Positions 138-31,479 of a stretch of DNA of 39,656 nucleotides are shown here, one piece after another. Source of the stretch: Oligoflexales bacterium (lineage in GTDB: Bacteria; Bdellovibrionota_B; Oligoflexia; Oligoflexales; Bog-1112); the NCBI GenBank assembly GCA_045105515.1, contig JBGCDR010000146.1, positions 1-39,656 on the forward strand, given 5' to 3'. Positions within the stretch are counted from its first letter, which is position 1, and each line of letters begins with the position of its first letter. The notes under the pieces were generated by a model. It did no database searches and was not told where the DNA came from. It was given only the letters and a program-made list of their open reading frames with translations. Position numbers and translations under genes: made by a program.

Positions 138-138
138 T

Positions 139-12404: not shown

Positions 12405-12785
12405 ATGAGTCATAATTCGAAAAATATCGGTATCGACAAAGAACAATTTCACAAGAAATTACTTGAGGAATTTAAAGGGGATGAAGAAATACTTTGTAAA
12501 ATGATTGGAATATATCACAAAAAATCAGGTCAATATCTAAGCTCTCTCGAAGAGTCAATCACTAAAAACGAAGCTGTAGAAATTGTTCACTCCTCTCATT
12601 TATTCAAGGGTGCAATTGGAAACTTCACAGTCGATAGTCCCTTTAAAATATTAAGAAAAATTGAATACCTAGCAAAGAATAAGGATCTAGAGGCAATTCC
12701 TCAACTCCTAGAAGAACTAAAACCTCAGCTTGTGGAATTAAATTCTGCACTTACTGACTTAAAAACAAATCTATCTAAACTTTAA
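12405..12785 (+). CDS. Stand-alone Hpt phosphotransfer protein
   Basis: SHLFKGAIGNF (H-x-x-K-G motif), helical 126 aa. Confidence 0.88.
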   Translation: MSHNSKNIGIDKEQFHKKLLEEFKGDEEILCKMIGIYHKKSGQYLSSLEESITKNEAVEIVHSSHLFKGAIGNFTVDSPFKILRKIEYLAKNKDLEAIPQLLEELKPQLVELNSALTDLKTNLSKL

Positions 12786-12796
12786 CAGAGATTGGT

Positions 12797-13447: not shown

Positions 13448-13514
13448 GTTCAGTTGTTATCCAATTTCACAATTCATACCACTTTTAAATATTTAATATT
13501 ATTATTAAGTGATC

Positions 13515-13541
13515 TAATTAATTTCTTATAACGGACGAATA
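13515..13541 (+). promoter_or_regulatory. Candidate sigma28 promoter for the globin gene
   Basis: TAAT-N15-GACGAATA, about 45 bp upstream of 13585. Confidence 0.35.
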
Positions 13542-13584
13542 GTTATGTGACTGCCTGCGACTGCGCATTTTATGGAGGAAAGAC

Positions 13585-14364: not shown

Positions 14365-14447
14365 AATTTAGCTTTTAGAAAAAATAAAATCATATAATCA
14401 CATAATAACTAAAATTAATAGCTGAGGGTGCAAAAGGAGGATAAAGC

Positions 14448-14792
14448 TTGATAATCCTGGTAGTAGAAGATGATCCTTCATTTAATGAAGCCCTTTGTTC
14501 TTCATTGACTAATTGGGGTCATGATGTTCACTCTGCAATTGATGGTGAAGCCGCCTTAAGACTCATAAATCTTCACAAATTTGAAATGGTTTTTTCTGAT
14601 TTATCAATACCAAAACTAGATGGATTAAAACTTCTAGAAAAATTCAGAGAGTTTGATACAATCACTCCTTTTTATATCATCACAGGATATAACGATAGAA
14701 TCGATGAGCTAAACCTAGATGAAAACACAAAAATCTTAAACAAGCCATTTAGGTTAAAAGAATTCAGAAGTATAGTAGAAGCCTATCAGTAA
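14448..14792 (+). CDS. Single-domain response regulator
   Basis: VEDD, FSDLSIP, ITG, KPF; GGAGG RBS with TTG start. Confidence 0.9.
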   Translation: MIILVVEDDPSFNEALCSSLTNWGHDVHSAIDGEAALRLINLHKFEMVFSDLSIPKLDGLKLLEKFREFDTITPFYIITGYNDRIDELNLDENTKILNKPFRLKEFRSIVEAYQ

Positions 14793-17373: not shown

Positions 17374-17402
17374 AAACCACCATTTTGATCAAGGAAACTA
17401 TT

Positions 17403-18248
17403 TTAACTTGCTTTTTTACTGTTAACTTTTTGATGGATTACAGATCCACCGACTTTTTTCACTTCGAACTGATCACTTAATCCAATCATACTTTCAGTAC
17501 CACCTAACACTAGGTAACCATCTCCAATAAGATGCTCACAAAATCTTGAAACTATTGATCTTTTATTTTTACTACTTTGATAAATAAGAACATTTCTACA
17601 TAAAATTAGGTCAAAACTTCCAACATGTCCCCAAGGTTCAATAAGATTCATTTGTTTAAAAACTATCGATTTTTTAAGATAGGGTTTAACACGCCAATTT
17701 GGAAATTTTCCCTCTGAGTCTTGCTCAAAGTGCGTTAGTAACATTGGTGCACTCAAACCTCTTTGCACCTGAAGTTGAGTATAAACGCCTTCTGAAGCAT
17801 GCTTCAAAACTCGATCTGAATAATCAGTTGCCATCATATAGTATTTAAAATTATAACCTTTTTTTTCTAAATCATACAAAATCATCGCCAAGGTATAGGG
17901 TTCTTGTCCAGTACTACACGCTGCACTCCAAATATTAAGATAACTTTTTCCTGCTTTCAAATATTCCTCAAGCACGGATTTTATGGCGTTGAAGACGCCG
18001 ATATCGCGAAAAAATTTGGTTTCATTATTAGTTGCTGTATCAAGAAGCATATTTTCGAGAGTCCGATCGCCTTGAAGTTCAGCTTGTTTATATTGGCGAT
18101 AAAACTCGTCTACCGATTCAATTTTTAATTGTTTACAGATATCTTCTAATCTAGAAGAAAGCTGATAATAGTTTTCCTTAATGTAAACAATTCCAATCTT
18201 ATTTTTTATCAATTCAGAAAAATATTCTAAATGTTTTTCATTAGTCAT
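17403..18248 (-). CDS. cheR: Chemotaxis methyltransferase CheR
   Basis: TNNETKFFRD, IWSAACSTGQEPY, FDLILCRNVLIY, GGTES. Confidence 0.96.
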   Translation of the reverse strand: MTNEKHLEYFSELIKNKIGIVYIKENYYQLSSRLEDICKQLKIESVDEFYRQYKQAELQGDRTLENMLLDTATNNETKFFRDIGVFNAIKSVLEEYLKAGKSYLNIWSAACSTGQEPYTLAMILYDLEKKGYNFKYYMMATDYSDRVLKHASEGVYTQLQVQRGLSAPMLLTHFEQDSEGKFPNWRVKPYLKKSIVFKQMNLIEPWGHVGSFDLILCRNVLIYQSSKNKRSIVSRFCEHLIGDGYLVLGGTESMIGLSDQFEVKKVGGSVIHQKVNSKKAS

Positions 18249-18250
18249 AA

Positions 18251-18622
18251 CTATTTATCCAAACTAATATAATTGTTCAACTTCTCTACTAAAATATCAT
18301 CCGTAAAAGGTTTCATAATATAGTCATTAGCTCCAAGATTTAAGGCCATTTGGATGTCTTCCATTTTATTTTTTGATGTGATTTTAATTATTGGAACTTC
18401 TTGGTTGACACCCCTAATCGCTTTAATGGTTTCTGGACCGTCCATAATAGGCATTTCCCAGTCCAGCAGGACAATATCAAAATGTTTTTTTTGAATATCA
18501 ATAAACTCAAGAGCATCTTTACCTGAAAATGCCGAAGTGAAGTTTATTTGATTATACTCATCTAATGATCCTTTGATAAAATTATGGACTGATTTTGAGT
18601 CATCAACAATTAGAATTTCCAT
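18251..18622 (-). CDS. cheY: CheY-like response regulator
   Basis: IVDDS, LLDWEMP, GANDYIMKPF; inside the che operon. Confidence 0.88.
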   Translation of the reverse strand: MEILIVDDSKSVHNFIKGSLDEYNQINFTSAFSGKDALEFIDIQKKHFDIVLLDWEMPIMDGPETIKAIRGVNQEVPIIKITSKNKMEDIQMALNLGANDYIMKPFTDDILVEKLNNYISLDK

Positions 18623-18634
18623 ATTTAGTCCTTA

Positions 18635-19513
18635 CTAATTTTTTTTCTTTTGATTCAATAATTCATCAATACATTCATCTATGACTTCTTGCTTCGGGGC
18701 CATTTTTGAAATTTCTGATCCTGATGCTACTAAGTTTTCCCTTAGTTCCCAGCTAAGCACCAATCCTTTTTTTATTTGAACACTTGCTGTTGCTGCTAGC
18801 CTTGATATATCTTCATTGCCGTTTTCACTCTTTTCAATAATTCTATTTATATAATCGATTATGGCACCTAGAATTTTGATAGATTGGGTCGCTTCAATAA
18901 ATTCTGCACTTGAGTACACCTCAAATAATAATGATTTTATCTCCTCATATTCTTTATTAAGATTTTGGCATATTGATACACTTCCTGATCCAACCCCATC
19001 TAATAATGCTTCAATTTGATTGAATTTTTCTTGGTTGAAGAAATTTTCATACAATGACACGAATTTGGAAATGTCATTTACTTCAGGTTCGGCAGATGAG
19101 TTTGGGGAGCTTCCCTTAATCTCCATAACTTGGTTCTTATCATCATTAAAAAATCGATCGAATATATCGATTAACTTTTCCCAGCTTACATATTTTTTGG
19201 AAATTATAATCTCAGACAGTGTCTTATTCTTCTCTTCAACTACTTTTAAAATTTCATTTTCAAATTTTTCATTCCATATATTTAGAGATTTGCAAGCACC
19301 AATATAATTTGTTGAGTTTTCTGATAGAAATTTGAAAACTTCTAGTTGCTGATCAATATCCAGCAATTTATTATCATAAACAACTCTTGAGAGATGCGGT
19401 ATTGATTCTACTTTTTCTACCATACACTCTAAAAGATTATCTTTGGAAAGGAGATTATCCTTAAGCAACAGTTTACCTATATACTTCACAACTCCTCCTG
19501 GATTAACATCCAA
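18635..19513 (-). CDS. Hypothetical che-operon protein: N-terminal MshEN-like repeats plus Hpt-like helix bundle lacking His
   Basis: YIGKLLLKDNLLSKDNLLEC and TLSEIIISKKYVSWEKL resemble MshEN xLGxxLxxxGxIxxxxL. LFEVYSSAEFI sits where an Hpt has HxLKGxA. Tightly packed in the operon. Confidence 0.55.
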   Translation of the reverse strand: MDVNPGGVVKYIGKLLLKDNLLSKDNLLECMVEKVESIPHLSRVVYDNKLLDIDQQLEVFKFLSENSTNYIGACKSLNIWNEKFENEILKVVEEKNKTLSEIIISKKYVSWEKLIDIFDRFFNDDKNQVMEIKGSSPNSSAEPEVNDISKFVSLYENFFNQEKFNQIEALLDGVGSGSVSICQNLNKEYEEIKSLLFEVYSSAEFIEATQSIKILGAIIDYINRIIEKSENGNEDISRLAATASVQIKKGLVLSWELRENLVASGSEISKMAPKQEVIDECIDELLNQKKKN

Positions 19514-19514
19514 C

Positions 19515-22160
19515 TTAGGCTACATTTTTTCCGGAACTCACCCTTAGATGACTAAGCATTTTATCAACATCGAGAATATTTATAATTTTTTCGTTATAAA
19601 TAATACTTCCCTTGATATTTTCATCATCTGTTTCATTGCCTTGACAAGGTTCATCCGATCTAATTATATCCATAAACTCATTGACTTCGAGACCAAAAAA
19701 ACCTTCTGCCATTTTTAATACGATGAGTTTATAATTCTCATCTTTCTTAGCTCCAGTCCTAGGAAGCAAGGGCATCACTTTATGTCTGTAGTTTACTGCT
19801 TTTATCTTACCTTTATAGAATACTTTGCTTTCATCTATTTCTTCTAATCTATTGACCTTATCCAAAGGTATTCCATAAAAACCAGGGATACCAATATCTA
19901 TTAAAAGGTACTCATTTATTTTAGATTTTCCTGTCAACGATGTCTGATTTGCTCTATCAATATATTGTTGCCCTTGATCAAGATTTTGCATAAGATTATA
20001 GAGATTAGCAAGTCGCAAGACATCTAATGTTAAGGCTATTTTACCATCACCCATAATAGTGGCTCCAGAATAAATCGTAGATTTGGTCAAGAACTTTATC
20101 AAGGGTTTAATTACAATATCAGTAGAATTAATAATTTCATCGACAACCAAACCAAATCGGCAGTTTCCTGCCACCAAAACAACCAAATTTACAACTTCTA
20201 AGTGTTCAAAGTATTCTTTAGTAGATTGTTTACTACCTTCCAATACTTCATTCAAAAAGAGCAAGGGTAATATACGACCTCTTTGTTTGTATACTGGAGA
20301 GCCTCCTAACCAATCGATTTTTCCTTTATCCTCAGAAATATCAATTCTTGAAAGTTCAACAAGATTTGCTTGCGGTATAACAAACATATCTTCTTTAGCT
20401 TGAACTATAAGAGCGGGAAGTATCGTCAAGGTCAAAGGAAGTTTAAGAGTGTATTTTGTACCAGTGTTGAAAAATGATTCTATATCAATAGAACCACCAA
20501 ATTTTTCTAGTGACTCTTTAACAATATCGAGTCTGCAATCAGGACCACAATTCTTATAAAGAATTTTAGAAACACTAGATGCGAAAAGAAAATACAAAGT
20601 GGTCTTTTCATCTAAATGGCCTGCTTCTTGGGTAGTTACTAAATCTTCGCTAATTGCTATTTCCTTAATTTTATCTAGATTTTGTCCGCATCCATCATCA
20701 GCAACCGTGACAATAATCTGACCACCCTCTCGCCGCGCATTAACTGATATGATAGCTTTTTCTGGCTTATTGTTTTTTATTCGGCCACTTTGCGTTTCTA
20801 TACCAGTTAAAACAGCTATTTTAGCTAACTGACAAATTGGCTCTTCTATGGACTCTAAGATAGTTTTGTCAACCTCGGTGTGTTGACCACTAATATCCAG
20901 ACGTACCGCTTTGTCACTTTTTCTTGAATAATCCCTCACACTACGCTTCAATTTAGAAAAAACTAAATTGATCGGCTGAAGCCTGGTTTTCAGTATTTCA
21001 TTTTGTAGTTTATTGGTTAAAACATTAAGGTTTTGACTCAGAAATGAGTAAACATCGCCATACTCACTGTTTTGACTATTTAACTGAAGTAATTGGTTAC
21101 GAATTAAAATTAACTCACCAATTAAATTCATTAGGTTATTTAAGATACTTACCGGAACTCTTACCGTATCACTAACTTGATCATGCCCTGTCTCAACTCC
21201 CATTTCCGGTTTACTGATGCTTGTTGTTTTTTGATTTTCATCAGAAGGATCTAATTTTTTGCTTTCTATCGCTTTACTGGGAGGATCTCCAAAAGAGCCA
21301 AATTTAATACCTTCAATCTCATCAAGTGATACTTTTTTCTTCTTAATTCCAGATTTTGATTGAGAATTATGTATCTTGGTTTCGCTCTTTTTTAGAGGTG
21401 CGCCAAAAGAACCAAATTTGACACCTTCAATCTCATCAAGTGATACTTTTTTCTTCTTAATTCCAGATTTTGATTTGGGCTTCTCTTCAATTTTGGTGTT
21501 TGATTTGCTTTCTATAATTCCACTAGACGTTTTTTTATCAGAGTATTCACTTGCAGGCTTTGGATTAATTTTCTGGATATCCTCAATTTTATCAACCTTA
21601 ACTTCAGTTGATTCTTCGGAGGTTTTTTCTTCAGATGCTTGTTGCTTTAAAGTAACACTTGATCTATTGTGATCCCTTATATATTTTACTTCGTAAAATG
21701 GATTTAAACTTAGCCCCTCTGGCGAATCAATAAAGTTCAAAGGTTCAAATTTTTCATATATTTCGGCAAATACTGAACAAGTAACTCTTATTGTTTCATT
21801 ATCAGCCTTTAAATATTCAGGTGTCAACTTGCTATGATCGTATAAAGACTCTAGCTTTTTCCTTATATATTCTATAGCAATTAAAATACGATCAAGCAGG
21901 TTTTTAGATAAATTAACTTTCCCTTTTCTTACACTATCTAGGCAGGTTTCTAGACCATGAGCAACGTTGCCAATATGATATATTCCATAAAGTTGAGAAC
22001 TTCCTTTAATCGTATGCATTGACCGATATATAGACTTATAAACTCCAGCTTGATCCTGGACATTATCTTTTTCTATTTCCAGAAATTCATCACAGACATT
22101 ATCAAGTAACTCTAAGGATTCCTCGATATATTCATTAATATATTTTTCTAGATTCTTCAT
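19515..22160 (-). CDS. cheA: CheA-like pseudokinase (intact Hpt, degenerate HATPase, two CheW domains)
   Basis: Hpt MHTIKGSS and P3 LNNLMNLIGELILIRNQL are intact. N box reads ICQLAKIAVLTGIE, F box FASSVSK, G2 GPDCRLDIVK. Confidence 0.9.
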   Translation of the reverse strand: MKNLEKYINEYIEESLELLDNVCDEFLEIEKDNVQDQAGVYKSIYRSMHTIKGSSQLYGIYHIGNVAHGLETCLDSVRKGKVNLSKNLLDRILIAIEYIRKKLESLYDHSKLTPEYLKADNETIRVTCSVFAEIYEKFEPLNFIDSPEGLSLNPFYEVKYIRDHNRSSVTLKQQASEEKTSEESTEVKVDKIEDIQKINPKPASEYSDKKTSSGIIESKSNTKIEEKPKSKSGIKKKKVSLDEIEGVKFGSFGAPLKKSETKIHNSQSKSGIKKKKVSLDEIEGIKFGSFGDPPSKAIESKKLDPSDENQKTTSISKPEMGVETGHDQVSDTVRVPVSILNNLMNLIGELILIRNQLLQLNSQNSEYGDVYSFLSQNLNVLTNKLQNEILKTRLQPINLVFSKLKRSVRDYSRKSDKAVRLDISGQHTEVDKTILESIEEPICQLAKIAVLTGIETQSGRIKNNKPEKAIISVNARREGGQIIVTVADDGCGQNLDKIKEIAISEDLVTTQEAGHLDEKTTLYFLFASSVSKILYKNCGPDCRLDIVKESLEKFGGSIDIESFFNTGTKYTLKLPLTLTILPALIVQAKEDMFVIPQANLVELSRIDISEDKGKIDWLGGSPVYKQRGRILPLLFLNEVLEGSKQSTKEYFEHLEVVNLVVLVAGNCRFGLVVDEIINSTDIVIKPLIKFLTKSTIYSGATIMGDGKIALTLDVLRLANLYNLMQNLDQGQQYIDRANQTSLTGKSKINEYLLIDIGIPGFYGIPLDKVNRLEEIDESKVFYKGKIKAVNYRHKVMPLLPRTGAKKDENYKLIVLKMAEGFFGLEVNEFMDIIRSDEPCQGNETDDENIKGSIIYNEKIINILDVDKMLSHLRVSSGKNVA
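21289..21475 (-). repeat. Direct repeat, 2 x 73 bp (period 114 bp) in the CheA-like linker
   Basis: 21289-21361 and 21403-21475 differ at 3 positions; both encode SKSGIKKKKVSLDEIEG[VI]KFGSFG. Confidence 0.92.
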
Positions 22161-22173
22161 CAGGCTCTACACT

Positions 22174-23718
22174 CTATGAAATCCATATTTTTAATTTTTG
22201 ATCTTCATATTTTTCTTCAATCAGTATTTGCTTCACATAGCCGGAACGTTGTACTTTTCTCTTCAATTCACTAAATTCTATGCCTTTTTCTTCAATAATA
22301 CCCAAGTATTTTTCAGGTATAAGTTCTTCAATCATATCTACTACTCGGCAGGGCATTTGGAGATCTACCTTCTCCCTATTATTTTCGATAAGCTTAATAT
22401 TAAGGTATTTTGAAAAATCTTTAGAAGTATAATTCTTGACATCAAATTGAATATACTGATCTTTTTTCACCAGGACTTTTACTTTATCAGTGTAACAAGA
22501 TCTACTTTTAAAATTCTTGTATATTTGATAAAAGTTAATACTTACATTTAATTTTTCAAGCAGCATAAATAAGCCATTTACTGCTTTTAAAAATATAAAA
22601 AACCAAGGTGGTCCTGCAGCTCGAAACCACCATCGATCTTCCCCTAGGATGGAATTTAGTCTTTCTTTTAAATTCCATTCAGAAATCTTGTAGGGTCTAT
22701 CAGCTGAAAATGGCTCTAACAATAAGCTAATCACAGCAGGTAATAGATGGGCAATATACTTTAGTTTGCTACCATCAAAACCAAGGCTAATTAAATAATC
22801 AAAAGGCGAGAGTGTTTCTTCCTCTACTACGTTTTTAAGGAAAGACCACATTACAGCTGCATGATTGTCGTCAAGCACCAGGGTGGCACCAAAATCATAC
22901 AAGATGATCGCATCAAATTTCCCAGCTGTATTCAACTTAAAACTGATGTTTCCAAAGTTAAAATCAGTCTGAAAACACCTTAAGCCAAAGAGCATTTCAA
23001 AAAAAACTGTTATCAAATTTGATGCAGCTTTTATTTTTTCAGATTTATCCTTCAAAACAAAGGAATCAACTGATATTCCTTCGACCCAATCTTGCAAAAG
23101 AATAGTCTTATTACAATTTGCCGTATATATTTTAGGAACAATGGCTCTAGTATAGTGATTATTAAAATGATCAAAAAATATTTTTTGTTTCTTTGCTTCC
23201 CTCACATAGTCTATTTCGCTTTTCAAAAGTTCTTCAAATAAGTTTCTATAATTTTCTGCCTCAAAGTTTTTCTTATGAAAAAATGGAATAAATTTATAAA
23301 ATTTAAAAAGTTTGTTTATTTGCTGGTCTATGACTTTAGCAATCCCGGGATACTGAATTTTGACAGCATATTCAACACCATTTTTTAATTCCAGCTTATG
23401 CACCTGTCCAACAGAAGCTGAATGAGCTTTTCGATCAAGATTTTTTATTACTCCAATTAACTGGGGTATCTGAGTATGAATAAGATCAAGTACTTCTTCA
23501 TAAGGTATCTCGTAAATAGTTGTGCCATTATTTGAAGATAATGAATCTTCTTCTAGCTTATCGCCTATAAACTGACTAATTTTAGTGCTAATCCCGGGAA
23601 AAGAACCAAGCCATTCCTTAAGAAATTTTATGCTTTTCTCTTTATTGGTTAAACGATAATTAAGAAATTTCACCGTATTTGTGATGGAATTCGAAACTAA
23701 TACTTGGGGTTTTATCAT
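22174..23718 (-). CDS. ABC1/UbiB/Coq8-family atypical protein kinase-like
   Basis: KISQ (KxGQ-like), SASVGQVH, AVKIQYPGI, EIDYVREA, QTDFNFGN catalytic loop, YDFG; 4-bp ATGA overlap with cheB. Confidence 0.9.
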   Translation of the reverse strand: MIKPQVLVSNSITNTVKFLNYRLTNKEKSIKFLKEWLGSFPGISTKISQFIGDKLEEDSLSSNNGTTIYEIPYEEVLDLIHTQIPQLIGVIKNLDRKAHSASVGQVHKLELKNGVEYAVKIQYPGIAKVIDQQINKLFKFYKFIPFFHKKNFEAENYRNLFEELLKSEIDYVREAKKQKIFFDHFNNHYTRAIVPKIYTANCNKTILLQDWVEGISVDSFVLKDKSEKIKAASNLITVFFEMLFGLRCFQTDFNFGNISFKLNTAGKFDAIILYDFGATLVLDDNHAAVMWSFLKNVVEEETLSPFDYLISLGFDGSKLKYIAHLLPAVISLLLEPFSADRPYKISEWNLKERLNSILGEDRWWFRAAGPPWFFIFLKAVNGLFMLLEKLNVSINFYQIYKNFKSRSCYTDKVKVLVKKDQYIQFDVKNYTSKDFSKYLNIKLIENNREKVDLQMPCRVVDMIEELIPEKYLGIIEEKGIEFSELKRKVQRSGYVKQILIEEKYEDQKLKIWIS

Positions 23719-24830
23719 TTTTTCTCCCCATAATGGCTATAGCTAAGAATAAGTTCTCGGCAATTCGATAAAGATTTCACTGCATCATAGGCATTTTCTT
23801 CATATACTGCCCCTGGCATACCCCAAACTGTAGATGAATCCTCATCTTGGATAACAATTCCACCACCACCATTTTTTATTGCAATCGCACCATCGCAACC
23901 ATCACTTCCCATTCCCGTGAGTACAAACCCCATTAAATAGTTTTTGTAAATCTGAGAACTACTTTCAAATGTGTAGTCAGCTGCCGGAATAACAAAGTTT
24001 CTTCGAGCTTCTTGGTTTAGACTGATTTTACACTTTTCACTTTCAGAAACTACGTTCATATGATAGCCACCCGGAGCCAAATAAACCATTCCTGGTTCTA
24101 CTAAATCTCCATCCGATGCTTCGACAACATTATTCTCTGTAACTCGATCTAGCCTATTTGCCAGCTGTGAGGTAAACATTGGTGGCATATGCTGAGCGAT
24201 AAATATGGGAAAAGAAAACTTTGGTAGACCATCAAACAACTCTTCTAAAGCAGCTGGTCCACCTGTAGAACAGGCGATGACTATGGCCTTAGGTTTAAAT
24301 ATATCAAGCTTGACCTTAACCCAGGAAGACTCATCTTTTTTTACCTTATGTTCCGAGGTATCTGCATTATAGCGGTAACGAGGTGCTTTTCCCTTGGCTA
24401 TAGTAGGTGAGGGATCTGCAGGGGCTCGTTTTTTAATAAACTGCATTAATTTTGGCACTAATTCAGAGGCAACCTGATCACGAACTTCTTCCATAGAACC
24501 GCTTGAACCTGCAGGCTTTAAGGCAAAATCATCTGCCCCTAATTCTAAGGCATTCAGGGCATGACTTGCTCCACTCATGCTATTGGAAGTGAATACGACA
24601 ATCTTAGGGCGGATATCAAGTTTTTTAATTTCTTTGATCGTGGATTCACCATCTAATACCGGCATTTCTAAGTCTATGATCATTAAATCGATATCATAAT
24701 GGTCAAGTTTTTTGAGCGCAATCTTTCCATTAGACGCTGAAGAAACTACCTGGAATTCAGGTAGTTCTTCCAGCACCTCAGAGATTTTCCGGCGAAACAC
24801 TACAGAATCGTCAACAATGAGTACTTTCAT
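23715..24830 (-). CDS. cheB: Chemotaxis methylesterase CheB (REC plus esterase)
   Basis: IVDDS, IDLEMP, CSTGGP, QHMP, LTGMGSDG, QDEDSSTVWGMP. Confidence 0.97.
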   Translation of the reverse strand: MKVLIVDDSVVFRRKISEVLEELPEFQVVSSASNGKIALKKLDHYDIDLMIIDLEMPVLDGESTIKEIKKLDIRPKIVVFTSNSMSGASHALNALELGADDFALKPAGSSGSMEEVRDQVASELVPKLMQFIKKRAPADPSPTIAKGKAPRYRYNADTSEHKVKKDESSWVKVKLDIFKPKAIVIACSTGGPAALEELFDGLPKFSFPIFIAQHMPPMFTSQLANRLDRVTENNVVEASDGDLVEPGMVYLAPGGYHMNVVSESEKCKISLNQEARRNFVIPAADYTFESSSQIYKNYLMGFVLTGMGSDGCDGAIAIKNGGGGIVIQDEDSSTVWGMPGAVYEENAYDAVKSLSNCRELILSYSHYGEKK

Positions 24831-24859
24831 AATTTTATCTTTCCCAAGTTCCTACTCGC

Positions 24860-26788
24860 TCAAAGATCCATATTCTTGACTAAGGTATTTAGCTGTTCAG
24901 CAAGGCTACTTAGTGAACGACTCGCTTCTAATATTTGGTTTGCTCCAGAGCTGGTTTCAGATGCAGCCTTAGAAACATTTTTAATGTTGTCCGCAATAGC
25001 TTGAACACCCTTGTTAGATTCATCAACAACTCTGGTTACTTCCAGAGAGGTAGCAGCTTGTTCTTCAATCGAAGCAGCAATTGAACCAGAAATATCGTTA
25101 AGTTTTTTAATACTTTCGCTAATAGCACCTATTGCGGTGACTGTTTGCTCAGTATCACTTTGGATCGCTCCTATTTTTGAAGTAATTTCCTCGGTAGCAG
25201 TTGCTGTTTGCTTGGCTAATTCTTTAACCTCATTGGCTACGACTGCAAATCCTCTTCCTGCATCACCAGCTCTTGCGGCTTCAATAGTAGCATTTAACGC
25301 AAGAAGGTTAGTTTGCTGAGCAATCGAGCTGATAACCTTAATAACCTTACCTATTTGATTGCTACTTTCCCCAAGCTTCATGATCTTAACATTGGTTTCA
25401 TCAGCTTGGGATTTGGTTGCATTCGACATTTTTGATGCCTGAGAAGAATTATTAGAAATTTCTTTAATTGCAGCTTGCATTTCTTCCATGTTTGTAGCTA
25501 CAGCATCAAAACCTTTTGACACTTCCTCTGAAGCGGATGCCGCGTTGGTAGACTGAGCAGAGGTTTCTTCAGAATTTGCTGTCATTTGCGTAGAGGTAGC
25601 ATTCATTTCTTCGGCTGCCGCAGACAATGAACTTGCTGCTTCTTTAATATTAGAAACGAGAGCAATTTTTTCAGTAATCACTTCCCAAGTAACCATTGCT
25701 CCTAAATACTCTTGATTTGCGTCATAGGTGGCATTTACCCTTAGCTGCAGGGTATCTTGCCCAACCTTTATCCTTGCGGTATGAGGTAGATTACGCGGAT
25801 CTGAGAGAATTTTTCTTTGAACATCTGGGTTTTTGTGGAATATATCTATTTTTTCACCAATCAACTTGTCAACTGGCTTTGGTAATTCTCGTTCTATGGT
25901 TTTTAAGGTTTCGTAAGATGCTGGATTCATAAACACTAGATTGTAATCTAAATCTGCCATCAATATATTAATTGGTGCATTTTCAATCATTGACTGAATT
26001 CTAGCTAGCTCGTTTTCTTTTTCTAATTTTTCAGTAATGATTTCCCAGGTCACCATCGGGCCTATGTATTTATTGTCTTTGTCGTAAACTGCCGAAACAA
26101 GTAAATCCAACTTTTCTGGGCCTACACCGATTTCAGCACGATGGGGAAGGTTTCTATCATCTCTTACTATGCTTCTTTGAATTTCTGGCTTGCGATGAAA
26201 GATATCTATTTTTTCTCCAAGTAGCTGATCAACAGGCCTTGGGAGATATTTCTCTAAAGTTTTCAGAGTCTCACGAGAAGCAGGATTCATATAGACAAGG
26301 GTAAAATCCGTATCAGCAAGCAAGATATTTATAGGGGCGTTTTCTAACATGGAGTTATAACGTGCTGCTTGATTATCAACTTTGACTTTCTCAGTAATGA
26401 TTTCCCAAGTTAACATCGGGCCCACGTAATCGCCTACTTTGTTGTAAATAGGAGAAATCAATAAATCTAAGATTTCATCTCCCAGCTCAATTTTAGCTCG
26501 ATGCGGCAAGTTCCGCGGATCTTTTAGCAGATTTCGCTGATGTGAAGGATTTTTATGAAACACATCAATGCTTGATCCAATTACTTTGTCAGCTGGAATA
26601 GGTAAGACCTTTTCAAGTTTACGTAAGGTATTGTAGCTAGATTCATTTAAATACTTAATCTCAAAATTAAGATCACAATACATGATGTTAATAGGTGAAC
26701 TGTCATTAAAAGCACGAAACTCTTCAGATGAAATCTCCGAATCCTCGCTTTGAAGTAACCTTGCTGCATTTGAAGCCATAACAATCAC
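24860..26788 (-). CDS. Soluble methyl-accepting chemoreceptor with three Aer2-type PAS domains
   Basis: Three repeats with IDxFHxxP and TWE[IV]IT; no TM segment; signalling hairpin [37 protein letters not shown]. Confidence 0.93.
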
Positions 26789-26791
26789 CCT

Positions 26792-27289
26792 TTATTTTAG
26801 TTCATTTAAATAATTAACTATTTTCTGTAAATCGATGATACTGAGTAGTGAAGAATTATTAACCTTGTAAACTCCCACCATAAATCTCTTGATAGAGTTA
26901 GGGATCGTTTGAGGAGTCTGCTCAAAGTCACTTGCTTCAACACTAAATACATCACCAATCTCATCAACTAATAAAGACACCAAATTATCCTCGTACTGAC
27001 AGACCACATTCATATATTCTGAATTTTCACTAGTGCCTGTTTGTGAGCTTATCCCAAGCAATTCACGCATTCCAATTGCCGTAGTCACTTGCCCTCTAAG
27101 GTTTATGAGTCCTTTGATACATTCCGGCACCAAAGGGATCTTAGTAAGAGGCATAGGCTTTACAATTTCCTGCACTTGAGTAACTTCAATCCCATAGATC
27201 TGATCCGCAACATAAAAAGTCGAATATTGAGTGCTATGAGTTGATTGAGTATTTTGAGCAGCCCGGCTATTTTGTACTTCTTGAGTCAT
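26792..27289 (-). CDS. cheW: Coupling protein CheW
   Basis: VQEIV, GLINLRGQV, LLVDEIGDV; GAGG RBS favours ATG 27289 (track start 27316). Confidence 0.95.
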   Translation of the reverse strand: MTQEVQNSRAAQNTQSTHSTQYSTFYVADQIYGIEVTQVQEIVKPMPLTKIPLVPECIKGLINLRGQVTTAIGMRELLGISSQTGTSENSEYMNVVCQYEDNLVSLLVDEIGDVFSVEASDFEQTPQTIPNSIKRFMVGVYKVNNSSLLSIIDLQKIVNYLNELK

Positions 27290-27305
27290 CTTGATCCTCT
27301 TTTCA

Positions 27306-29435
27306 TTAAGCAGCACTTTTTTGTTTATCTAAGTGCTTAAGCATTGAATTTAACAATACTGATTCATCAAACTTTTTTAAAAAATCTGAGAACCCAAGTT
27401 CTTTCCCTCTTTGAATTAGGTCGTCAGTATAGCGGCTCGTCATAGCAACTACCGGAATATTGCCCCATTTTTCACTGTTACGAATGTTTTCAAGAAGCTC
27501 AAATCCATCCATTTCCGGCATTTCAATATCGGTTATTACAAAATCTACGTCCTTGTTCGATGCATTAGCCAAATATTGGTGGGCTAATCTACCATTTTTT
27601 TCGGAATGAACATTGAACCCAAAATTTTTCAGAGTCCTTTGAATATGATTTCTATAAGAATTACTGTCCTCAACAAGAAGGATACTAAGATTCTTTGGTA
27701 AGAGCATTAGAACTTCGGCATTGGGATCACTAGAATCTAATCCAATGAATTCGCTTATGATCGAATATACATCGATGCAGACAATGATTTGCTCTTTATA
27801 GATTACATTCCCAACAATTCCTACAGATTGAGTCAAGCCTTCTTCTGTCTCACCTCTAATCTCAATAACATCAAGAATACTATCCACAAGTATGCCAAAA
27901 AACTGATTACAATGTTTAACTACTGCAACTGAATGCTTAGCCGATTTTTTTTCGCTTTTATTTATATCATTGAAATCTACATAATCTAAAACTGAGATAA
28001 GAGGCAATATATCATCACCATAGTTGACCACAAGATTATCCCCACAATATTCTAGGTCATCTTCATCAAATTCCTCCAATCTGTGGACAAATCCCAATGG
28101 AATTGCGTATCTACCAGGAACGTTAAGATCAACTAGTAGATATTCCTCGACTGTTTCATTGAGCTTTAAACTTAGGTCTTCTACCTGATTATTGATAAAT
28201 TTTTGAGATTGTTCTGAAAAGATATCTTCTCCCTCTGCTAAGCCAACTGCATCAAGTACGAGAGCAACCGATCCGTCCCCCATGATTGTGGCTCCTGAAT
28301 AAACCGAGGCATTTTTGAGAAAACTACTTAGTGGCTTCACAACGATATCTGTGGAATCAACAATGGTATCTACCACCAAGCCAAAGGAACAGTTATTTGC
28401 TGTGAGTACAGCTATATTTTTCGTATGAATTGGGTTTTCCTTTGGACACAGTCCAAGGGCATGTTCAAGAGAAATCAGCGATAATATGCTGCCTCTGAGC
28501 CTATAAATTGGCTTTCCACCAAGCCATTCTATCATTTCTCCATGTTCATTATCTTCAACCATTACTAGCTCTTGAATTTTTACCTGTGGAATTGCATATT
28601 TTTCGTTTTTTACTTGTACAATGACTGCTGGAACTATTGCCAAAGTAAGAGGTATCTTCAATAGTATCGCTGACCCATGCCCTTCCTGACTATCTAGCTC
28701 TATGGTGCCATTGATCTGCTCGATGTTAGTTTTAACAACGTCCATTCCAACGCCCCTGCCAGATATACTTGACACCTTTGCAGCTGTTGAAAATCCTGGA
28801 TTAAATATTAAATTAAAAATTTGTTTTCGGGTCATATTTTGTATTTCATCATTGCTAACTAGACCCTTACTCACTGCCTTGTTAGCGATTAATTTTTCAT
28901 CTAGGCCCTTTCCGTCATCAATCACTTGCACAACTACCTGACCACCTTCGTGGAAGGCTTTAATACTAATATTTCCTTTCTCGTTTTTACCTTTTTTCAC
29001 CCTTACATCAGGGTTTTCTATACCATGATCAACCGCGTTTCTTACAATATGAATCAAAGGGTCTTTTATACCTTCAATTAAAGTCTTGTCTAGCTCTGTT
29101 TCCGCACCTTGAATTGATAAATCAATCTCTTTTTTTAGATCACGAGATAAATCTCTAACAATCCTACTTAATTTCGAGAGGATATTACCAATAGGCTGCA
29201 TCCTAGTTTTCATAACATCATTTTGTAATTCATTGGTAACAGCATTAAGATTTTGCCCAAGAGCTACCACTTTATCGTCAGATTTCCTCTGCGAGGAAAC
29301 TTGCGTGAATTGATTTCTAATCAGAACCAACTCGCCGATAAAGTTCATCAAATTGTCAAGCAAGCCAACCTGAACCCTTATGGTATCTGAGGAACCATCA
29401 AAACTACCAGTCTTGCCTAATTTTTTATTATCCAT
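27306..29435 (-). CDS. cheA: CheA lacking the Hpt/P1 domain (P3-P4-CheW-CheW-REC)
   Basis: Starts about 15 aa before DTIRVQVGLLDNLMN; intact HIVRNAVDHGIE, DDGKG, FNPGFST, SGRGVGMDVVK; C-terminal REC (VEDS, TDIEMP); in-frame TAG two codons upstream of the ATG. Confidence 0.92.
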   Translation of the reverse strand: MDNKKLGKTGSFDGSSDTIRVQVGLLDNLMNFIGELVLIRNQFTQVSSQRKSDDKVVALGQNLNAVTNELQNDVMKTRMQPIGNILSKLSRIVRDLSRDLKKEIDLSIQGAETELDKTLIEGIKDPLIHIVRNAVDHGIENPDVRVKKGKNEKGNISIKAFHEGGQVVVQVIDDGKGLDEKLIANKAVSKGLVSNDEIQNMTRKQIFNLIFNPGFSTAAKVSSISGRGVGMDVVKTNIEQINGTIELDSQEGHGSAILLKIPLTLAIVPAVIVQVKNEKYAIPQVKIQELVMVEDNEHGEMIEWLGGKPIYRLRGSILSLISLEHALGLCPKENPIHTKNIAVLTANNCSFGLVVDTIVDSTDIVVKPLSSFLKNASVYSGATIMGDGSVALVLDAVGLAEGEDIFSEQSQKFINNQVEDLSLKLNETVEEYLLVDLNVPGRYAIPLGFVHRLEEFDEDDLEYCGDNLVVNYGDDILPLISVLDYVDFNDINKSEKKSAKHSVAVVKHCNQFFGILVDSILDVIEIRGETEEGLTQSVGIVGNVIYKEQIIVCIDVYSIISEFIGLDSSDPNAEVLMLLPKNLSILLVEDSNSYRNHIQRTLKNFGFNVHSEKNGRLAHQYLANASNKDVDFVITDIEMPEMDGFELLENIRNSEKWGNIPVVAMTSRYTDDLIQRGKELGFSDFLKKFDESVLLNSMLKHLDKQKSAA

Positions 29436-29478
29436 AAGCTACTAGTTCCTACGAACCTTTACAAAGGTTATGGCCGGC

Positions 29479-29505
29479 TTATCGGAAGTAAAAAATAAAA
29501 GGTTA
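29479..29505 (-). promoter_or_regulatory. Sigma28 (FliA)-like promoter for the che operon
   Basis: Minus strand TAAC-N15-TCCGATAA, 43 bp upstream of the P1-less cheA start. Confidence 0.6.
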
Positions 29506-29628
29506 AGAGATAGAGCGAAGATCCCTTAACAAACTCAGCGAAATGAGATTTTCTTAAAAAACAGCAGAACGATTCAATTATAAATATTCAAATTGCTGCA
29601 ATATTAAAAAAATACAAGCATCATCTAT

Positions 29629-30702
29629 CTATTTCTGATTAACTATTTTATAGGTTATATTTTGAATTTTCTTAAGATTTGCTAAGACATCTTCCTCTAG
29701 TTTTGAACTATGATAGTCAGTTTTGATCATCTTTGATGACCAATGCGCAAGTTTTATGTATGTATTAAAATTCAGTTCTGCTAACCTTCGAATGCTGAAT
29801 TGGGTTTCATAGTTTTTCAATGCTTTCTGTAATTCGAAGATTAGCAGGTCTTTTTTAAAAGGTTTTGGCAAAAATGCAAATGCTCCTAAATTAATGAATT
29901 CTTTTAGGTCTTCCATCTCAGCATACCCTGAATAGAAAATTACTGGCATCATTAGTTCTCTCTTACGTAATTCCCGAATAAAATCTAAACCATTCATCTC
30001 TGGCATTTTAAGATCAGTAATTATAGCCGAGATCGCTGTATCTGAATTATCAATTTCTTCTAGCGCAAGTCTGCCATTCATGGCTTTTAAAACTCTTACT
30101 CCGAGCGCCTTCTCGATTGAAGTAGACAACACCGTTAGGAGGCTAGCTTCATCATCACAGATAAGGATAGTAGTTTCTTTTAAGCTTTGCCTAACATCAA
30201 AATATTGAGAACTAGCTGGTTTGGGATCTTTAGACTTTGGTTTTTTAGCAGTCATACTAAAAACACCGTATTTCTCCATAATTTCAGACTTATTTGCGGC
30301 AATATTTTCTTTTCCAATAAGTTCACTAATCTTTTCTTGGAAGTCAGAAGTATCCAGAGTAAACCCATAATTTTCCAATAAGCCTTCAACAAAAGTCGCC
30401 AGCATGTCGTTAGCATCCAACAACAAATCAATAATTTCTTTGGAAATCTGAATTTCGCCAGCCCCGATTTTACTTAGTAAAGATTCGAAGTCATGAGCAA
30501 AATCGCTAAGCTGCTGAAAACCAGCTGCAGATCCTGAACCTTTAATGGTATGGGCGAGGCGAAAAATTTGATCTATGGTTTTATTATTATTTTCAGGATT
30601 TTGCTCTAATCCCAGAAATAGTTGCTCGCATTCCTCAAGCATTTCTTTGGCTTCTTCCAAAAAATCTTGCTTTAAAACATCAATTTCATAATCAATTTTC
30701 AT
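29629..30702 (-). CDS. CheA-P1-like Hpt fused to a REC domain
   Basis: FLEEAKEML, IFRLAHTIKGSG, AHDFESLL; REC ICDDE, ITDLKMP, YSG, KPF. Confidence 0.92.
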   Translation of the reverse strand: MKIDYEIDVLKQDFLEEAKEMLEECEQLFLGLEQNPENNNKTIDQIFRLAHTIKGSGSAAGFQQLSDFAHDFESLLSKIGAGEIQISKEIIDLLLDANDMLATFVEGLLENYGFTLDTSDFQEKISELIGKENIAANKSEIMEKYGVFSMTAKKPKSKDPKPASSQYFDVRQSLKETTILICDDEASLLTVLSTSIEKALGVRVLKAMNGRLALEEIDNSDTAISAIITDLKMPEMNGLDFIRELRKRELMMPVIFYSGYAEMEDLKEFINLGAFAFLPKPFKKDLLIFELQKALKNYETQFSIRRLAELNFNTYIKLAHWSSKMIKTDYHSSKLEEDVLANLKKIQNITYKIVNQK

Positions 30703-30714
30703 GTCATTCCTAAA

Positions 30715-31479
30715 CTACTGTTTGGTAACACCTATTTGCCCAACAAAACTGTTTAATATCGGTCTTTTTCTTGGCCCAAAGTAGTCAATATAGTCTTGCG
30801 TCCAATGATTCCATCGCCGCGATTCATCCTGGCGAATATCATAATATTTACGGAGAACTATGTCATATGCACCAATGACTTCAGGATCGAAGCTTGCTTT
30901 GCATGTTCCTTGCCAAAGCGGATCAGCAAGCCTTGTAGGCTCAAAAGGGTCGATGAATATTTTTAAACTATTTATTCCTTGTGCACGCTCGTCAATAACT
31001 TTTGACTCAAATAAAAAATCTACGCGGTCACGATATCGCCGATTAGTTTTACACTTCCTTCCAAGGCTAATCGTTATTATTTCTTTTTGTTCAAGACCAT
31101 CATCATAGTCCTGAACAAACATAAATCCCATTAACTCTGAGTCATTAATGATACTTAAAAAACTGTCTAGCTCCTTTGGGCCCGTCAATTTAACCGATTT
31201 TTGAACTATTTTTTTCATAGTATCAATTAGATCTACGTCATGATTGGGACGTAGATAAAATGATTCAAAAGTATTGACATGGATTTTATTTTGTGGCCTT
31301 GACCATCCAATCTTTTTCTTCTGCCTATAATTTTCAAATTTATTCATGAGGTATTTAAGAATATTGCTTGATTTTTTCTTTTCAGATAAAGCAAGATAAA
31401 TTTCACTATATTCTTGGCTATTTAAAACCTCACTTTGATCTCCGCATGGTTTATCCTGTGTCTTCTTACTAATGTGCAC
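30715..31479 (-). CDS. Hypothetical protein, first gene of the Hpt-REC unit
   Basis: 254-aa ORF, AAGGA RBS with GTG start, 12-bp gap to the Hpt-REC gene; no recognised motif. Confidence 0.7.
   Translation of the reverse strand: MHISKKTQDKPCGDQSEVLNSQEYSEIYLALSEKKKSSNILKYLMNKFENYRQKKKIGWSRPQNKIHVNTFESFYLRPNHDVDLIDTMKKIVQKSVKLTGPKELDSFLSIINDSELMGFMFVQDYDDGLEQKEIITISLGRKCKTNRRYRDRVDFLFESKVIDERAQGINSLKIFIDPFEPTRLADPLWQGTCKASFDPEVIGAYDIVLRKYYDIRQDESRRWNHWTQDYIDYFGPRKRPILNSFVGQIGVTKQ

What the first reader, a model, noticed from the sequence alone, without database searches (positions are those of the whole stretch)
19515..29435. Complementary CheA pair: P1-less active kinase and P1-bearing pseudokinase in one operon
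Seen: 27306..29435 has all ATP-binding boxes but no Hpt. 19515..22160 has an intact Hpt His, but its N box (HIVRNAVDHG to QLAKIAVLTG), F box and G2 (GRGVG to GPDCR) are destroyed with the frame intact. The two are close paralogues (SDTIRVQVGLLDNLMNFIGELVLIRNQ versus SDTVRVPVSILNNLMNLIGELILIRNQ; shared YSGATIMGDG and STDIV.KPL). Established: CheA trans-phosphorylates within dimers, and Rhodobacter sphaeroides CheA3/CheA4 is a split kinase, though CheA3 lacks P3/P4 altogether. Inference: duplication with reciprocal loss produced an obligate heterodimeric CheA that retains a dead P4, an independent route to a bipartite kinase.
Basis: partly seen in the sequence, partly recalled or inferred. Interest (0 to 1): 0.9.

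Follow-up and report, generated by a model that had tools for sequence, protein, structure and literature searches.

The report
Dead-kinase CheA paired with histidine-less CheA
One chemotaxis-type operon encodes two sister copies of the kinase CheA, one keeping the phosphorylatable histidine but with a dead ATP site and the other a working kinase with no histidine domain, so they probably work only as a pair.

Summary
The 881-aa protein (19515..22160, minus strand) is Hpt-P3-P4-P5-P5. Its P1 His/Lys/Glu are intact, but its N, F and G2 boxes are destroyed. The 709-aa protein (27306..29435) is P3-P4-P5-P5-REC with every box intact and no Hpt.

This is not strain-specific decay. Three orthologues (74-82% identical) carry the same dead boxes, and none of 379 other CheA-like proteins checked has lost both boxes. 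Both partners' orthologues lie on contigs of identical length in two other assemblies.

A tree built without P4 puts both lineages in one clade (98/100), nested among complete Hpt-CheA-REC kinases. The pseudokinase's Hpt is the orthologue of those kinases' own P1. Duplication with reciprocal loss (P1 versus P4 activity plus REC) is therefore well supported.

The "obligate heterodimer" is inference only (P3-P3 prediction: weak support, 0.39). All are rival phosphoryl routes.

It is a new variant of the split CheA3/CheA4 kind.

The parts
19515..22160 (-). CheA pseudokinase (P0001, 881 aa): P1/Hpt, low-complexity linker, P3, dead P4, P5a, P5b; no REC
21831..22160 (-). P1 (Hpt) of the pseudokinase, residues 1-110. 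Phospho-acceptor His49 is encoded at 22014..22016. Lys52 and Glu71 are kept.
   Evidence: alignment to 2ld6/1tqg; 85% mean identity among 4 orthologues; best matches are the P1 domains of CheA-REC kinases.
21281..21475 (-). Two copies of an 81-nt repeat in the P1-P3 linker (93% identical, spacing 114 nt), each encoding KSGIKKKKVSLDEIEG(V/I)KFGSFG
   Evidence: Logan unitigs break here at roughly doubled depth.
20985..21185 (-). P3 dimerisation domain of the pseudokinase (residues 326-392)
   Evidence: PF02895, 41.9 bits; 85% within the clade, 55% to the kinase clade
20427..20984 (-). Dead P4 domain (residues 393-578). The fold is recognisable but the catalytic boxes are lost.
   Evidence: E 1.2e-30 to P4 structure 1i58. 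(mosaic conservation). (only one 50% cluster of this type in 1.84 billion representatives).
20802..20831 (-). Former N box, QLAKIAVLTG in place of HxxRNxxDHG (Asn to Ile)
20526..20546 (-). Former G2 box, GPDCRLD in place of GRGVGMD
19545..20426 (-). P5a and P5b (two CheW-like domains) of the pseudokinase
   Evidence: P5a is 83% identical within the clade.
27306..29435 (-). P1-less active CheA (P0002, 709 aa): P3, P4 with N/G1/F/G2 intact, P5a, P5b, REC
27351..27683 (-). C-terminal receiver domain of the P1-less kinase (residues 585-695)
   Evidence: Response_reg, 1.7e-20
29629..30702 (-). Hpt-REC protein (P0003, 357 aa). It is an ancestral member of this operon type and a rival substrate of the P1-less kinase.
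26792..27316 (-). CheW
24860..26788 (-). PAS-containing MCP. No membrane-sensor family was matched.
23715..24830 (-). CheB (REC plus methylesterase)
22174..23718 (-). ABC1/UbiB-type atypical kinase, 13 bp upstream of the pseudokinase gene. It is absent from the three relatives' operons examined.
18635..19513 (-). 292-aa protein of no known family, a conserved operon member (weak homologue of the 336-aa gene at the same place in G007)
18251..18622 (-). CheY-like single receiver
17403..18248 (-). CheR
14800..17373 (-). Third CheA (P0004, 857 aa): REC-Hpt-P4-P5-P5 with all boxes intact. It is the orthologue of the REC-CheA of relatives.

Best explanation
Shown:
- An ancestral hybrid kinase of the type Hpt-P3-P4-P5-P5-REC, still single and complete in related genomes, was duplicated in this lineage.
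- One copy (709 aa) lost P1 and kept an active P4 and the receiver.
- The other copy (881 aa) kept the ancestral P1 with its catalytic His/Lys/Glu, and kept P3 and both P5 domains. It lost the receiver and the Mg-ATP residues of P4.
- Both states are conserved in all orthologues found.

Inferred:
- Neither copy can autophosphorylate alone.
- Both dock into the same receptor/CheW array through their conserved P5 domains.
- The live P4 of the 709-aa protein phosphorylates His49 of the 881-aa protein in trans. This is the normal geometry of CheA, where P4 of one subunit serves P1 of the other.
- The phosphoryl group then passes to the receivers of the operon: the kinase's own REC, CheY, CheB and Hpt-REC.
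- The dead P4 is kept as a structural or allosteric partner of the live one. Its core and former N-box helix are as conserved as in the live kinase, while only the ATP lid has relaxed.

Whether the transfer happens inside a P3-mediated heterodimer or between neighbouring homodimers is open.
For: - Domain content and motifs.
- Dead boxes are conserved in 3 of 3 orthologues at 74-82% identity. Only these 4 of 145 cores, 4 of 234 proteins and 0 of 149 further representatives are dead.
- The P1-less state is conserved in 3 of 3 close orthologues, 709-710 aa and 73-85% identical.
- Co-inheritance: P0005/P0124/P0385 all list a longest contig of 73071, and P0006/P0125/P0386 all list 84447.
- Sister relation: with P4 left out, the 4 pseudokinases, the 4 P1-less kinases and P0008 form one clade at UFBoot 98 / SH-aLRT 100. 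The careful tree has 43 rows and 344 columns. The quick trees agree.
- The three relatives' operons examined each have one complete Hpt-CheA-REC in that position.
- The Hpt of the pseudokinase best matches the P1 of those kinases (36-40% identity, 67-87 bits), not the Hpt of Hpt-REC proteins.
- Constraint (mean within-clade identity, pseudokinase against kinase): P1 85% (no counterpart), P3 85/87%, P5a 83/75%, P4 75/88%. Within P4: former N-box helix 94/93%, ATP lid 52/83%.
- P3-P3 hetero-complex prediction: weak support, score 0.39 against a best control of 0.00. That mark was reached by 116 of 157 solved complexes and 2 of 215 mismatches, but scores of 0.60 or under came from only 18 of the 157 and from both mismatches. 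The runs agree in at least 89% of contacts and the partner pLDDT is at least 67. CheA P3 dimers are solved, so the pass may be memory.
- Passages of bioRxiv 10.1101/2021.08.17.456688 state that P4 phosphorylates P1 of the adjacent subunit. They also report that a T. maritima heterodimer holding only one P4 did not phosphorylate its P1-3 partner, and that the two P4 domains influence each other. That gives a reason to keep a dead P4.
- Recalled, not from a call: E. coli CheA mutants defective in P1 and in P4 complement each other in heterodimers.
Against: - There is no biochemical or expression evidence.
- The P1-less kinase has other possible substrates:
Its Hpt also has the H-T-I-K-G and H-x-x-E residues.
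  - The intact third CheA has its own P1.
  - A 126-aa Hpt lies at 12405..12785.
- P1-less CheA-REC proteins occur elsewhere with no dead-P4 partner detected. P0009 and P0144 lie outside the clade, and 9 of the 120 proteins listed carry no Pfam Hpt. A pseudokinase is therefore not required for such a kinase.
- The heterodimer prediction is only weak support.
- The same-genus genome G001 (94% complete) has the flanking genes at 72-76% nucleotide identity but no orthologue of either protein was found. Its contig ends just before the operon, so this is not proof of absence.
- The branching of P0008 inside the clade is unresolved (76/43).
Confidence: 0.55

Rival explanations
1. The P1-less kinase phosphorylates the Hpt of the upstream Hpt-REC protein (or another free Hpt), as in split CheAs with a separate Hpt protein. 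The 881-aa protein is then a non-catalytic array scaffold or regulator. Its P1 would be charged by the third, intact CheA or by back-transfer from receivers, or would act as a phosphate sink.
For: - The Hpt-REC gene lies 193 bp upstream of the P1-less kinase.
- It is co-conserved with the kinase; even the 10921-base contig length is shared by P0126 and P0387.
- Its Hpt carries CheA-P1-like residues.
- P1-less CheA-REC forms exist elsewhere without a detected pseudokinase.
- A complete CheA is present in the same operon.
Against: - Hpt-REC is an ancestral operon member. It already sits beside a complete Hpt-CheA-REC in 3 of 3 relatives' operons examined, and its Hpt is orthologous to theirs (44-50% identity). 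Its presence therefore needs no link to the loss of P1.
- The Hpt that descends from the lost cis-P1 is the one on the pseudokinase. It is kept at 85% identity with all catalytic residues.
- The two readings are not exclusive.
Confidence: 0.25
2. The complementary pair works without heterodimers. Each protein forms P3 homodimers that sit side by side in one array, and the live P4 reaches the P1 of a neighbouring pseudokinase dimer across its 215-residue linker. This is as in R. sphaeroides, where CheA4 and CheA3 meet in the cytoplasmic cluster. It is a sub-variant of the best explanation.
For: - Passages of PMC3591291 describe CheA4 transiently binding the P1 of CheA3 while both are held in the cluster by their P5 domains.
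- The long flexible linker of the 881-aa protein is seen.
- The P3 domains differ at 45% of positions between the clades.
Against: - P3 is the most similar domain between the two clades (55%, against 40% for P4 and 35% for P5b).
- The P3-P3 hetero-prediction gave weak support rather than none.
- Homodimers of the pseudokinase would hold two dead P4 domains with no evident use.
Confidence: 0.3
3. The 881-aa gene is a decaying duplicate with no function of its own.
For: - It sits on a long stem branch (1.54 against 0.49 changes per column even without P4).
- Its ATP lid is relaxed (52% identity).
- It was not found in G001.
Against: - The frame is open in 4 of 4 lineages, at 69-78% overall identity to this protein.
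- P1, P3 and P5a are 83-85% identical within the clade, against 42% in the linker.
- The replaced N-box helix is invariant apart from one K/Q position.
Confidence: 0.03

Closest known systems
Rhodobacter (Cereibacter) sphaeroides CheA3/CheA4 bipartite kinase of the cytoplasmic cluster
   Same: One protein lacks P1 and carries P3-P4-P5 (CheA4). The other carries the phosphorylatable P1 and a P5 but cannot autophosphorylate (CheA3). Only the mixture is a kinase (passages of PMC3591291; PMC2829493).
   Different: - CheA3 has no P3 and no P4 at all, and carries a CheY6 phosphatase region in its long linker. Here the P1-bearing partner keeps P3 and a full-length but dead P4.
- Here the two partners are sister paralogues from a recent duplication.
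- Here the kinase partner carries a receiver.
- No phosphatase domain was detected.
Intermolecular complementation of E. coli CheA mutants and CheA-short (recalled from the literature, not seen in a call)
   Same: A subunit with a good P4 but no usable P1 His, together with a subunit with a good P1 but a dead P4, restores phosphorylation in trans within a dimer. This is exactly the division of labour seen here.
   Different: Those are laboratory mutants or an alternative translation start of one gene. Here the two states are fixed in separate, diverged genes (42% identity) and conserved across lineages.
Complete Hpt-P3-P4-P5-P5-REC hybrid CheA of Silvanigrella, Fluviispira and Bdellovibrio-type genomes (P0010, P0018, P0133) and of relatives G007, G028, G039
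   Same: - The domain order is the same, including the duplicated CheW-like domain.
- The operon partners are the same: CheW, PAS-MCP, CheB, unknown protein, CheY, CheR, Hpt-REC and REC-Hpt-CheA.
- They are 36-48% identical to the two window proteins.
   Different: Those are single, complete kinases. In the window that one gene is represented by two incomplete, complementary ones, the gene order is rearranged, and an ABC1 kinase gene is added.
Split CheA with a separate Hpt protein. 11 of 481 CheAs were counted as split by Wuichet and Zhulin 2010, as quoted in PMC3591291; the original paper was not held.
   Same: The kinase core and the phosphorylatable Hpt are on different polypeptides.
   Different: Those are described as gene splits. 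None described in the passages seen retains a dead kinase domain on the Hpt-bearing half.

Membership tests
CheA (chemotaxis histidine kinase), applied to the 881-aa protein | P1/Hpt with the phospho-accepting His and its Lys/Glu partners | tested here: met
   Pfam Hpt 1.1e-9. The alignment to T. maritima P1 keeps H-T-I-K-G and L-E-x-x-L-D.
CheA (chemotaxis histidine kinase), applied to the 881-aa protein | P3 dimerisation domain and a P5 CheW-like domain | tested here: met
   PF02895 2.5e-9 and PF01584 2.4e-25 with two stretches. E 2.4e-62 to CheA delta-289 structures.
CheA (chemotaxis histidine kinase), applied to the 881-aa protein | Catalytic P4 with N (HxxxN), G1, F and G2 boxes | tested here: not met
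   The N-box His and Asn are replaced (QLAKI), the F box is shortened by 2 residues, and G2 reads GPDCRLD. Only G1 (DDGxG) survives. It is a CheA homologue but not a kinase by sequence.
CheA (chemotaxis histidine kinase), applied to the 709-aa protein | P1/Hpt domain | tested here: not met
   There is no Hpt match. The protein starts 15 residues before P3, and an in-frame stop lies two codons upstream. Orthologues are 709-710 aa.
CheA (chemotaxis histidine kinase), applied to the 709-aa protein | P3, a catalytic P4 with all boxes, and P5 | tested here: met
   HIVRNAVDHG, DDGKGL, IFNPGFST, GRGVGMD.
Bipartite (split) CheA of the CheA3/CheA4 kind | The kinase half lacks P1; the P1-bearing half lacks kinase activity; both have a P5 | tested here: met
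   by sequence only. The architecture of the P1-bearing half differs from CheA3: P3 and a dead P4 are retained.
Bipartite (split) CheA of the CheA3/CheA4 kind | Neither protein autophosphorylates alone, and the mixture phosphorylates the P1-bearing partner | not testable with these tools
   This needs purified proteins and labelled ATP.
Bipartite (split) CheA of the CheA3/CheA4 kind | The two halves bind each other or the same array | tested here: inconclusive
   P3-P3 prediction gave weak support: 0.39 against a best control of 0.00. Such low passes are more often wrong than right unless the guess was likely beforehand, and the pass may reflect solved CheA dimers.
Conserved pseudoenzyme (as opposed to a decaying gene) | Catalytic residues lost while the frame and the other surfaces stay under constraint in several lineages | tested here: met
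   4 of 4 lineages have an open frame and the same dead boxes. P1, P3 and P5a are 83-85% identical against 42% in the linker. Within P4 the core is conserved and the lid relaxed. dN/dS could not be computed because no orthologue DNA was available.

The most novel reading that the evidence does not exclude
The two proteins form an obligate asymmetric heterodimer, a CheA with exactly one live P4 and exactly one P1 on opposite subunits. It has a single productive trans route. The dead P4 is retained because the live P4 needs a P4 neighbour to be regulated. The pair arose by duplication and reciprocal degeneration of a homodimeric CheA-REC. This would be an independent, natural route to a bipartite chemotaxis kinase, and a natural half-of-sites CheA for dissecting trans-phosphorylation and P4-P4 coupling.
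Probability: 0.3. Interest if true: 0.8.

Novelty: new variant of a known kind. Interest (0 to 1): 0.62.

Why it matters
- Split CheA kinases are rare. The only biochemically studied one, R. sphaeroides CheA3/CheA4, has a partner with no P3 or P4.
- This pair shows a different evolutionary path. A homodimeric kinase was duplicated and each copy lost what the other keeps, with a full-length dead catalytic domain conserved in the P1-bearing copy.
- If the pair works as inferred, it is a natural counterpart of the classical CheA complementation experiments. It would be a ready-made asymmetric CheA for asking why both P4 domains are needed in a dimer and how trans-phosphorylation is controlled in arrays.
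- Modelling of the Rhodobacter system (PMC3591291) suggests split kinases can give ultrasensitive or bistable responses, so the split may change signalling dynamics.
- Notes of this scan report other dead CheA-like proteins in unrelated uncultured bacteria (e1-3252387, e1-691505, e1-4784437). CheA pseudokinases may therefore be a recurrent theme that has not been described in the literature searched here.

Tried and rejected
- Strain-specific decay is rejected: 3 of 3 orthologues share the dead boxes.
- Hpt-REC as the split-off P1 of the 709-aa kinase is rejected. It is an ancestral operon member in 3 of 3 relatives' operons examined, and its Hpt is orthologous to theirs.
- Mis-binning of the contig is rejected: the flanks match the same-genus genome G001 at 72-76% nucleotide identity.
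- The genome-contig scan with the 881-aa protein returned only two distant CheAs, because its patterns fell in variable regions.
- A degenerate DNA pattern for the dead N-box region matched only the window's own genome among 95 genomes of the order and nothing in JGI metagenome contigs. No orthologue DNA was obtained, so no dN/dS was computed.
- The promoter and terminator scan was uninformative: 65 promoter-like sites found against 72.3 expected.
- Tandem Repeats Finder found nothing in the linker. The repeat finder did.
- No RNA holder was listed for the region, so nothing can be said on expression.
- The 254-aa first ORF does not match the CheX-like gene of G007.
- Literature searches found no description of a CheA with a dead P4 paired with a P1-less CheA. 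The searches were 'CheA + pseudokinase' (312 papers, none of the 15 listed relevant), 'CheA + P4 domain + degenerate + chemosensory', 'split CheA + Hpt' (0 papers) and 'CheA + chemosensory + catalytically inactive + Hpt'. The library lacks most subscription journals.
- Wuichet and Zhulin 2010 was not held.
Full report
**What is in the window**

Bases 14800..31479 on the minus strand hold one tightly packed chemosensory operon. In transcription order it reads:

- a 254-aa ORF of no known family
- Hpt-REC (P0003, 29629..30702)
- a 709-aa CheA (P0002, 27306..29435)
- CheW
- a PAS-MCP
- CheB
- an ABC1/UbiB-type kinase
- an 881-aa CheA (P0001, 19515..22160)
- a 292-aa protein of no known family
- CheY
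- CheR
- a third CheA (P0004, 14800..17373), which is REC-Hpt-P4-P5-P5 with all boxes intact

It did not mention the Hpt-REC gene or the receiver at the end of the 709-aa protein.

**The observation**

P0002 has H-kinase_dim, HATPase_c, two CheW-like stretches and a receiver, but no Hpt.

- Its boxes read HIVRNAVDHG, DDGKGL, IFNPGFST and GRGVGMD.
- An in-frame stop two codons before its ATG excludes a hidden N-terminus.

P0001 has Hpt, P3, a weak HATPase_c match and two CheW-like stretches.

- Against T. maritima CheA (1b3q, 3ja6; E about 1e-62) the N box reads QLAKIAVLTG, so both the His and the Mg-binding Asn are gone.
- G1 survives as DDGCGQ, the F box is two residues shorter, and G2 reads GPDCRLD.
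- Its P1 aligns with T. maritima P1 (2ld6, 1tqg) and keeps the His, Lys and Glu of the phosphorylation site.
- Contigs of three public runs, possibly the source samples, cover both genes without a single difference. They break only at a repeat in the P1-P3 linker.

**Is it decay in one strain? No.**

- The large protein collection holds three orthologues of P0001 (P0005 82%, P0006 76%, P0007 74% over P3-P5b). All three have the same dead boxes.
- Of 145 CheA cores aligned, only these four are degenerate. The other 141 carry HxxRNxx[DT]H[GA] and, with minor conservative variants, GRGVGMD.
- Regular-expression checks gave 4 of 234 proteins and 0 of 149 further cluster representatives. One of those, P0340, has only the N-box His changed to Gln, with the Asn and G2 kept.
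- An exhaustive HMMER search of 1.84 billion representatives with the dead P4 alone found one representative at 74% identity (P0006) and then nothing above 42%. The family is a single small cluster.
- P0002 likewise has three orthologues of 709-710 aa without Hpt (P0124 85%, P0125 77%, P0126 73%).
- P0003 has three orthologues as well (78, 69 and 66%).
- The orthologues of all three genes list the same longest-contig lengths: 73071 for one set and 84447 for another. P0126 and P0387 share 10921. I read this as co-location. I could not see the DNA.

**Constraint**

Mean pairwise identity (%):

| Domain | Within pseudokinase clade | Within kinase clade | Between clades |
|---|---|---|---|
| P1 | 85 | (none) | (none) |
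| Linker | 42 | (none) | (none) |
| P3 | 85 | 87 | 55 |
| P4 | 75 | 88 | 40 |
| P5a | 83 | 75 | 50 |
| P5b | 72 | 71 | 35 |

- Within P4, the N-terminal part (89.5% in the pseudokinase against 88.0% in the kinase) and the former N-box helix (93.7% against 92.9%) are as conserved in the dead copy as in the live one.
- The G1-to-G2 lid has relaxed (52% against 83%).
- The dead domain is therefore kept for something other than catalysis.

**Origin**

- The best match of P0001 in 40 related genomes is 38% identical, lower than the 42% to P0002 in its own operon.
- A quick tree of P3-P4-P5a placed the two lineages as sisters (SH-aLRT 93).
- To avoid bias from the fast-evolving P4, I rebuilt the tree on P3+P5a+P5b only.
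  - In the quick tree (46 rows), the four pseudokinases, the four P1-less kinases and P0008 (a 708-aa P1-less protein, 54% identical to P0002) form one clade at SH-aLRT 99.
  - In the careful tree the same clade has UFBoot 98 / SH-aLRT 100 (43 rows, 344 columns; three long rows were dropped: G000_C45, L012 and L015).
- That clade is nested among complete Hpt-P3-P4-P5-P5-REC kinases of Silvanigrella, Fluviispira and Bdellovibrio type.
- The stem of the pseudokinase clade is 1.54 changes per column against 0.49 for the kinase clade.
- Inside the clade the place of P0008 is unresolved (76/43).
- The operons of three relatives (G007 of the same family; G028 and G039 of the same order) each have a single complete Hpt-CheA-REC followed by CheW, (MCP) CheB, an unknown protein, (CheY) CheR and Hpt-REC. 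In G007 and G028 it is preceded by a REC-Hpt-CheA.
- BLAST of the Hpt domains shows three orthology groups:
  - P0001's Hpt goes with the P1 of the CheA-REC kinases (36-40% identity).
  - P0003's Hpt goes with the Hpt-REC proteins (37-50%).
  - P0004's Hpt goes with the REC-CheA kinases (31-32%).
- So the P1 that once belonged to the ancestor of P0002 now sits on P0001, and Hpt-REC is an older, separate component.
- Relative to those operons the window's operon is rearranged: Hpt-REC and REC-CheA have changed ends, and the block ABC1 plus pseudokinase lies between CheB and the unknown protein.

**How it most likely works**

- P0002's catalytic domain is intact and strongly conserved, yet the protein has no substrate domain of its own.
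- P0001 has a conserved, complete substrate domain and no catalytic residues.
- CheA normally phosphorylates in trans between subunits (passage in bioRxiv 10.1101/2021.08.17.456688).
- In R. sphaeroides a P1-less CheA4 phosphorylates a kinase-less CheA3, while both are held in one cluster by their P5 domains (passages of PMC3591291).
- By ancestry, the cognate substrate of P0002's P4 is P0001's P1. I put 0.55 on this.
- The same bioRxiv paper reports that a T. maritima heterodimer holding only one P4 did not phosphorylate its P1-P3 partner, and that the two P4 domains influence each other. That offers a reason why a dead P4 is retained here.

**What stays open**

- Whether the two proteins form heterodimers is open.
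  - P3 is the most similar domain between them.
  - A P3-P3 complex prediction gave weak support (0.39, best control 0.00). At that level passes are more often wrong than right unless the guess was likely beforehand. Solved CheA dimers may explain the pass.
- Rival routes are real.
  - Hpt-REC lies directly upstream of P0002, is co-conserved with it, and has P1-like residues.
  - P0004 is a complete kinase.
  - A 126-aa Hpt, a REC-HisKA without an ATPase domain, a globin and a single receiver are encoded divergently at 12405..14792.
- P1-less CheA-REC proteins outside this clade (P0009, P0144) have no detected dead partner.
- The same-genus genome G001 shares the flanks, but no orthologue of either gene was found in it. 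Its contig ends at the operon's edge.

**Comparison and novelty**

- The closest known system is CheA3/CheA4. CheA3 has only P1 and P5 plus a phosphatase region, and such variant CheAs are rare (passages of PMC2829493). PMC3591291 quotes 11 split CheAs among 481.
- This case differs in four ways:
  - the P1-bearing partner keeps P3 and a full-length dead P4;
  - the two partners are sister paralogues;
  - the kinase partner carries a receiver;
  - the loss is reciprocal.
- Four literature searches found no description of such a pair, in a library that lacks most subscription journals.
- Earlier notes of this scan, unchecked by me, report a paired CheA with a degenerate lid in a marine gammaproteobacterium (e1-3252387) and kinase-dead CheA-like proteins elsewhere (e1-691505, e1-4784437). 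The theme may therefore recur.
- I rate this a new variant of a known kind, with interest 0.62.

Noticed in passing
window 21281-21475 (minus strand; residues about 229-293 of the 881-aa protein): The P1-P3 linker holds two copies of an 81-nt repeat (93% identical) encoding KSGIKKKKVSLDEIEG(V/I)KFGSFG. The motif is present once or twice in all three orthologues. From memory, VSLDEIEGV resembles the CheY-P-binding peptides of FliM (N-terminus) and CheZ (C-terminus). It could be a receiver-docking motif that replaces P2. This was not tested.
   Followed up: partly
window 22174-23718 (minus strand): An ABC1/UbiB-type atypical kinase gene (Pfam 6.8e-38) sits inside the che operon, 13 bp upstream of the pseudokinase gene. 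The three relatives' operons examined have no such gene. Its role is unknown.
   Followed up: partly
window 12405-14792 (plus strand, divergent from the operon): A second small signalling set: a 126-aa Hpt, a 216-aa REC-HisKA with no ATPase domain, a 259-aa globin-domain protein and a 114-aa receiver. A globin gene also sits beside the CheA-REC gene of G039 (L027:12236-12952). This hints at oxygen or gas sensing feeding this pathway.
   Followed up: no
window 18635-19513 and L024:12341-13351, L026:10595-11500, L027:4829-5692: A 290-340-aa protein with no Pfam match holds a fixed place between CheB and CheY/CheR in this operon type. The window protein and the G007 protein are 19% identical (E 7e-11).
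   Followed up: partly
window 1-153: About 60-140 bases at the contig's start recur at 83-91% identity in some 40 places of the same-genus genome G001, many at contig ends. This is a dispersed repeat that breaks assemblies. A weak DDE transposase match lies at 2846-3511. No tRNA was found in the window.
   Followed up: partly
window 7479-8729 (minus strand): A 416-aa protein with a MAC/perforin domain match (Pfam 2.4e-7), next to a glycine-betaine-type ABC transporter.
   Followed up: no
window 14800-17373 and L024:3519-6083: The REC-Hpt-CheA of the window and of G007 gives no Pfam match to the P3 dimerisation domain. The G028 orthologue gives a weak one (1.7e-6). Its dimerisation region is divergent.
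   Followed up: no
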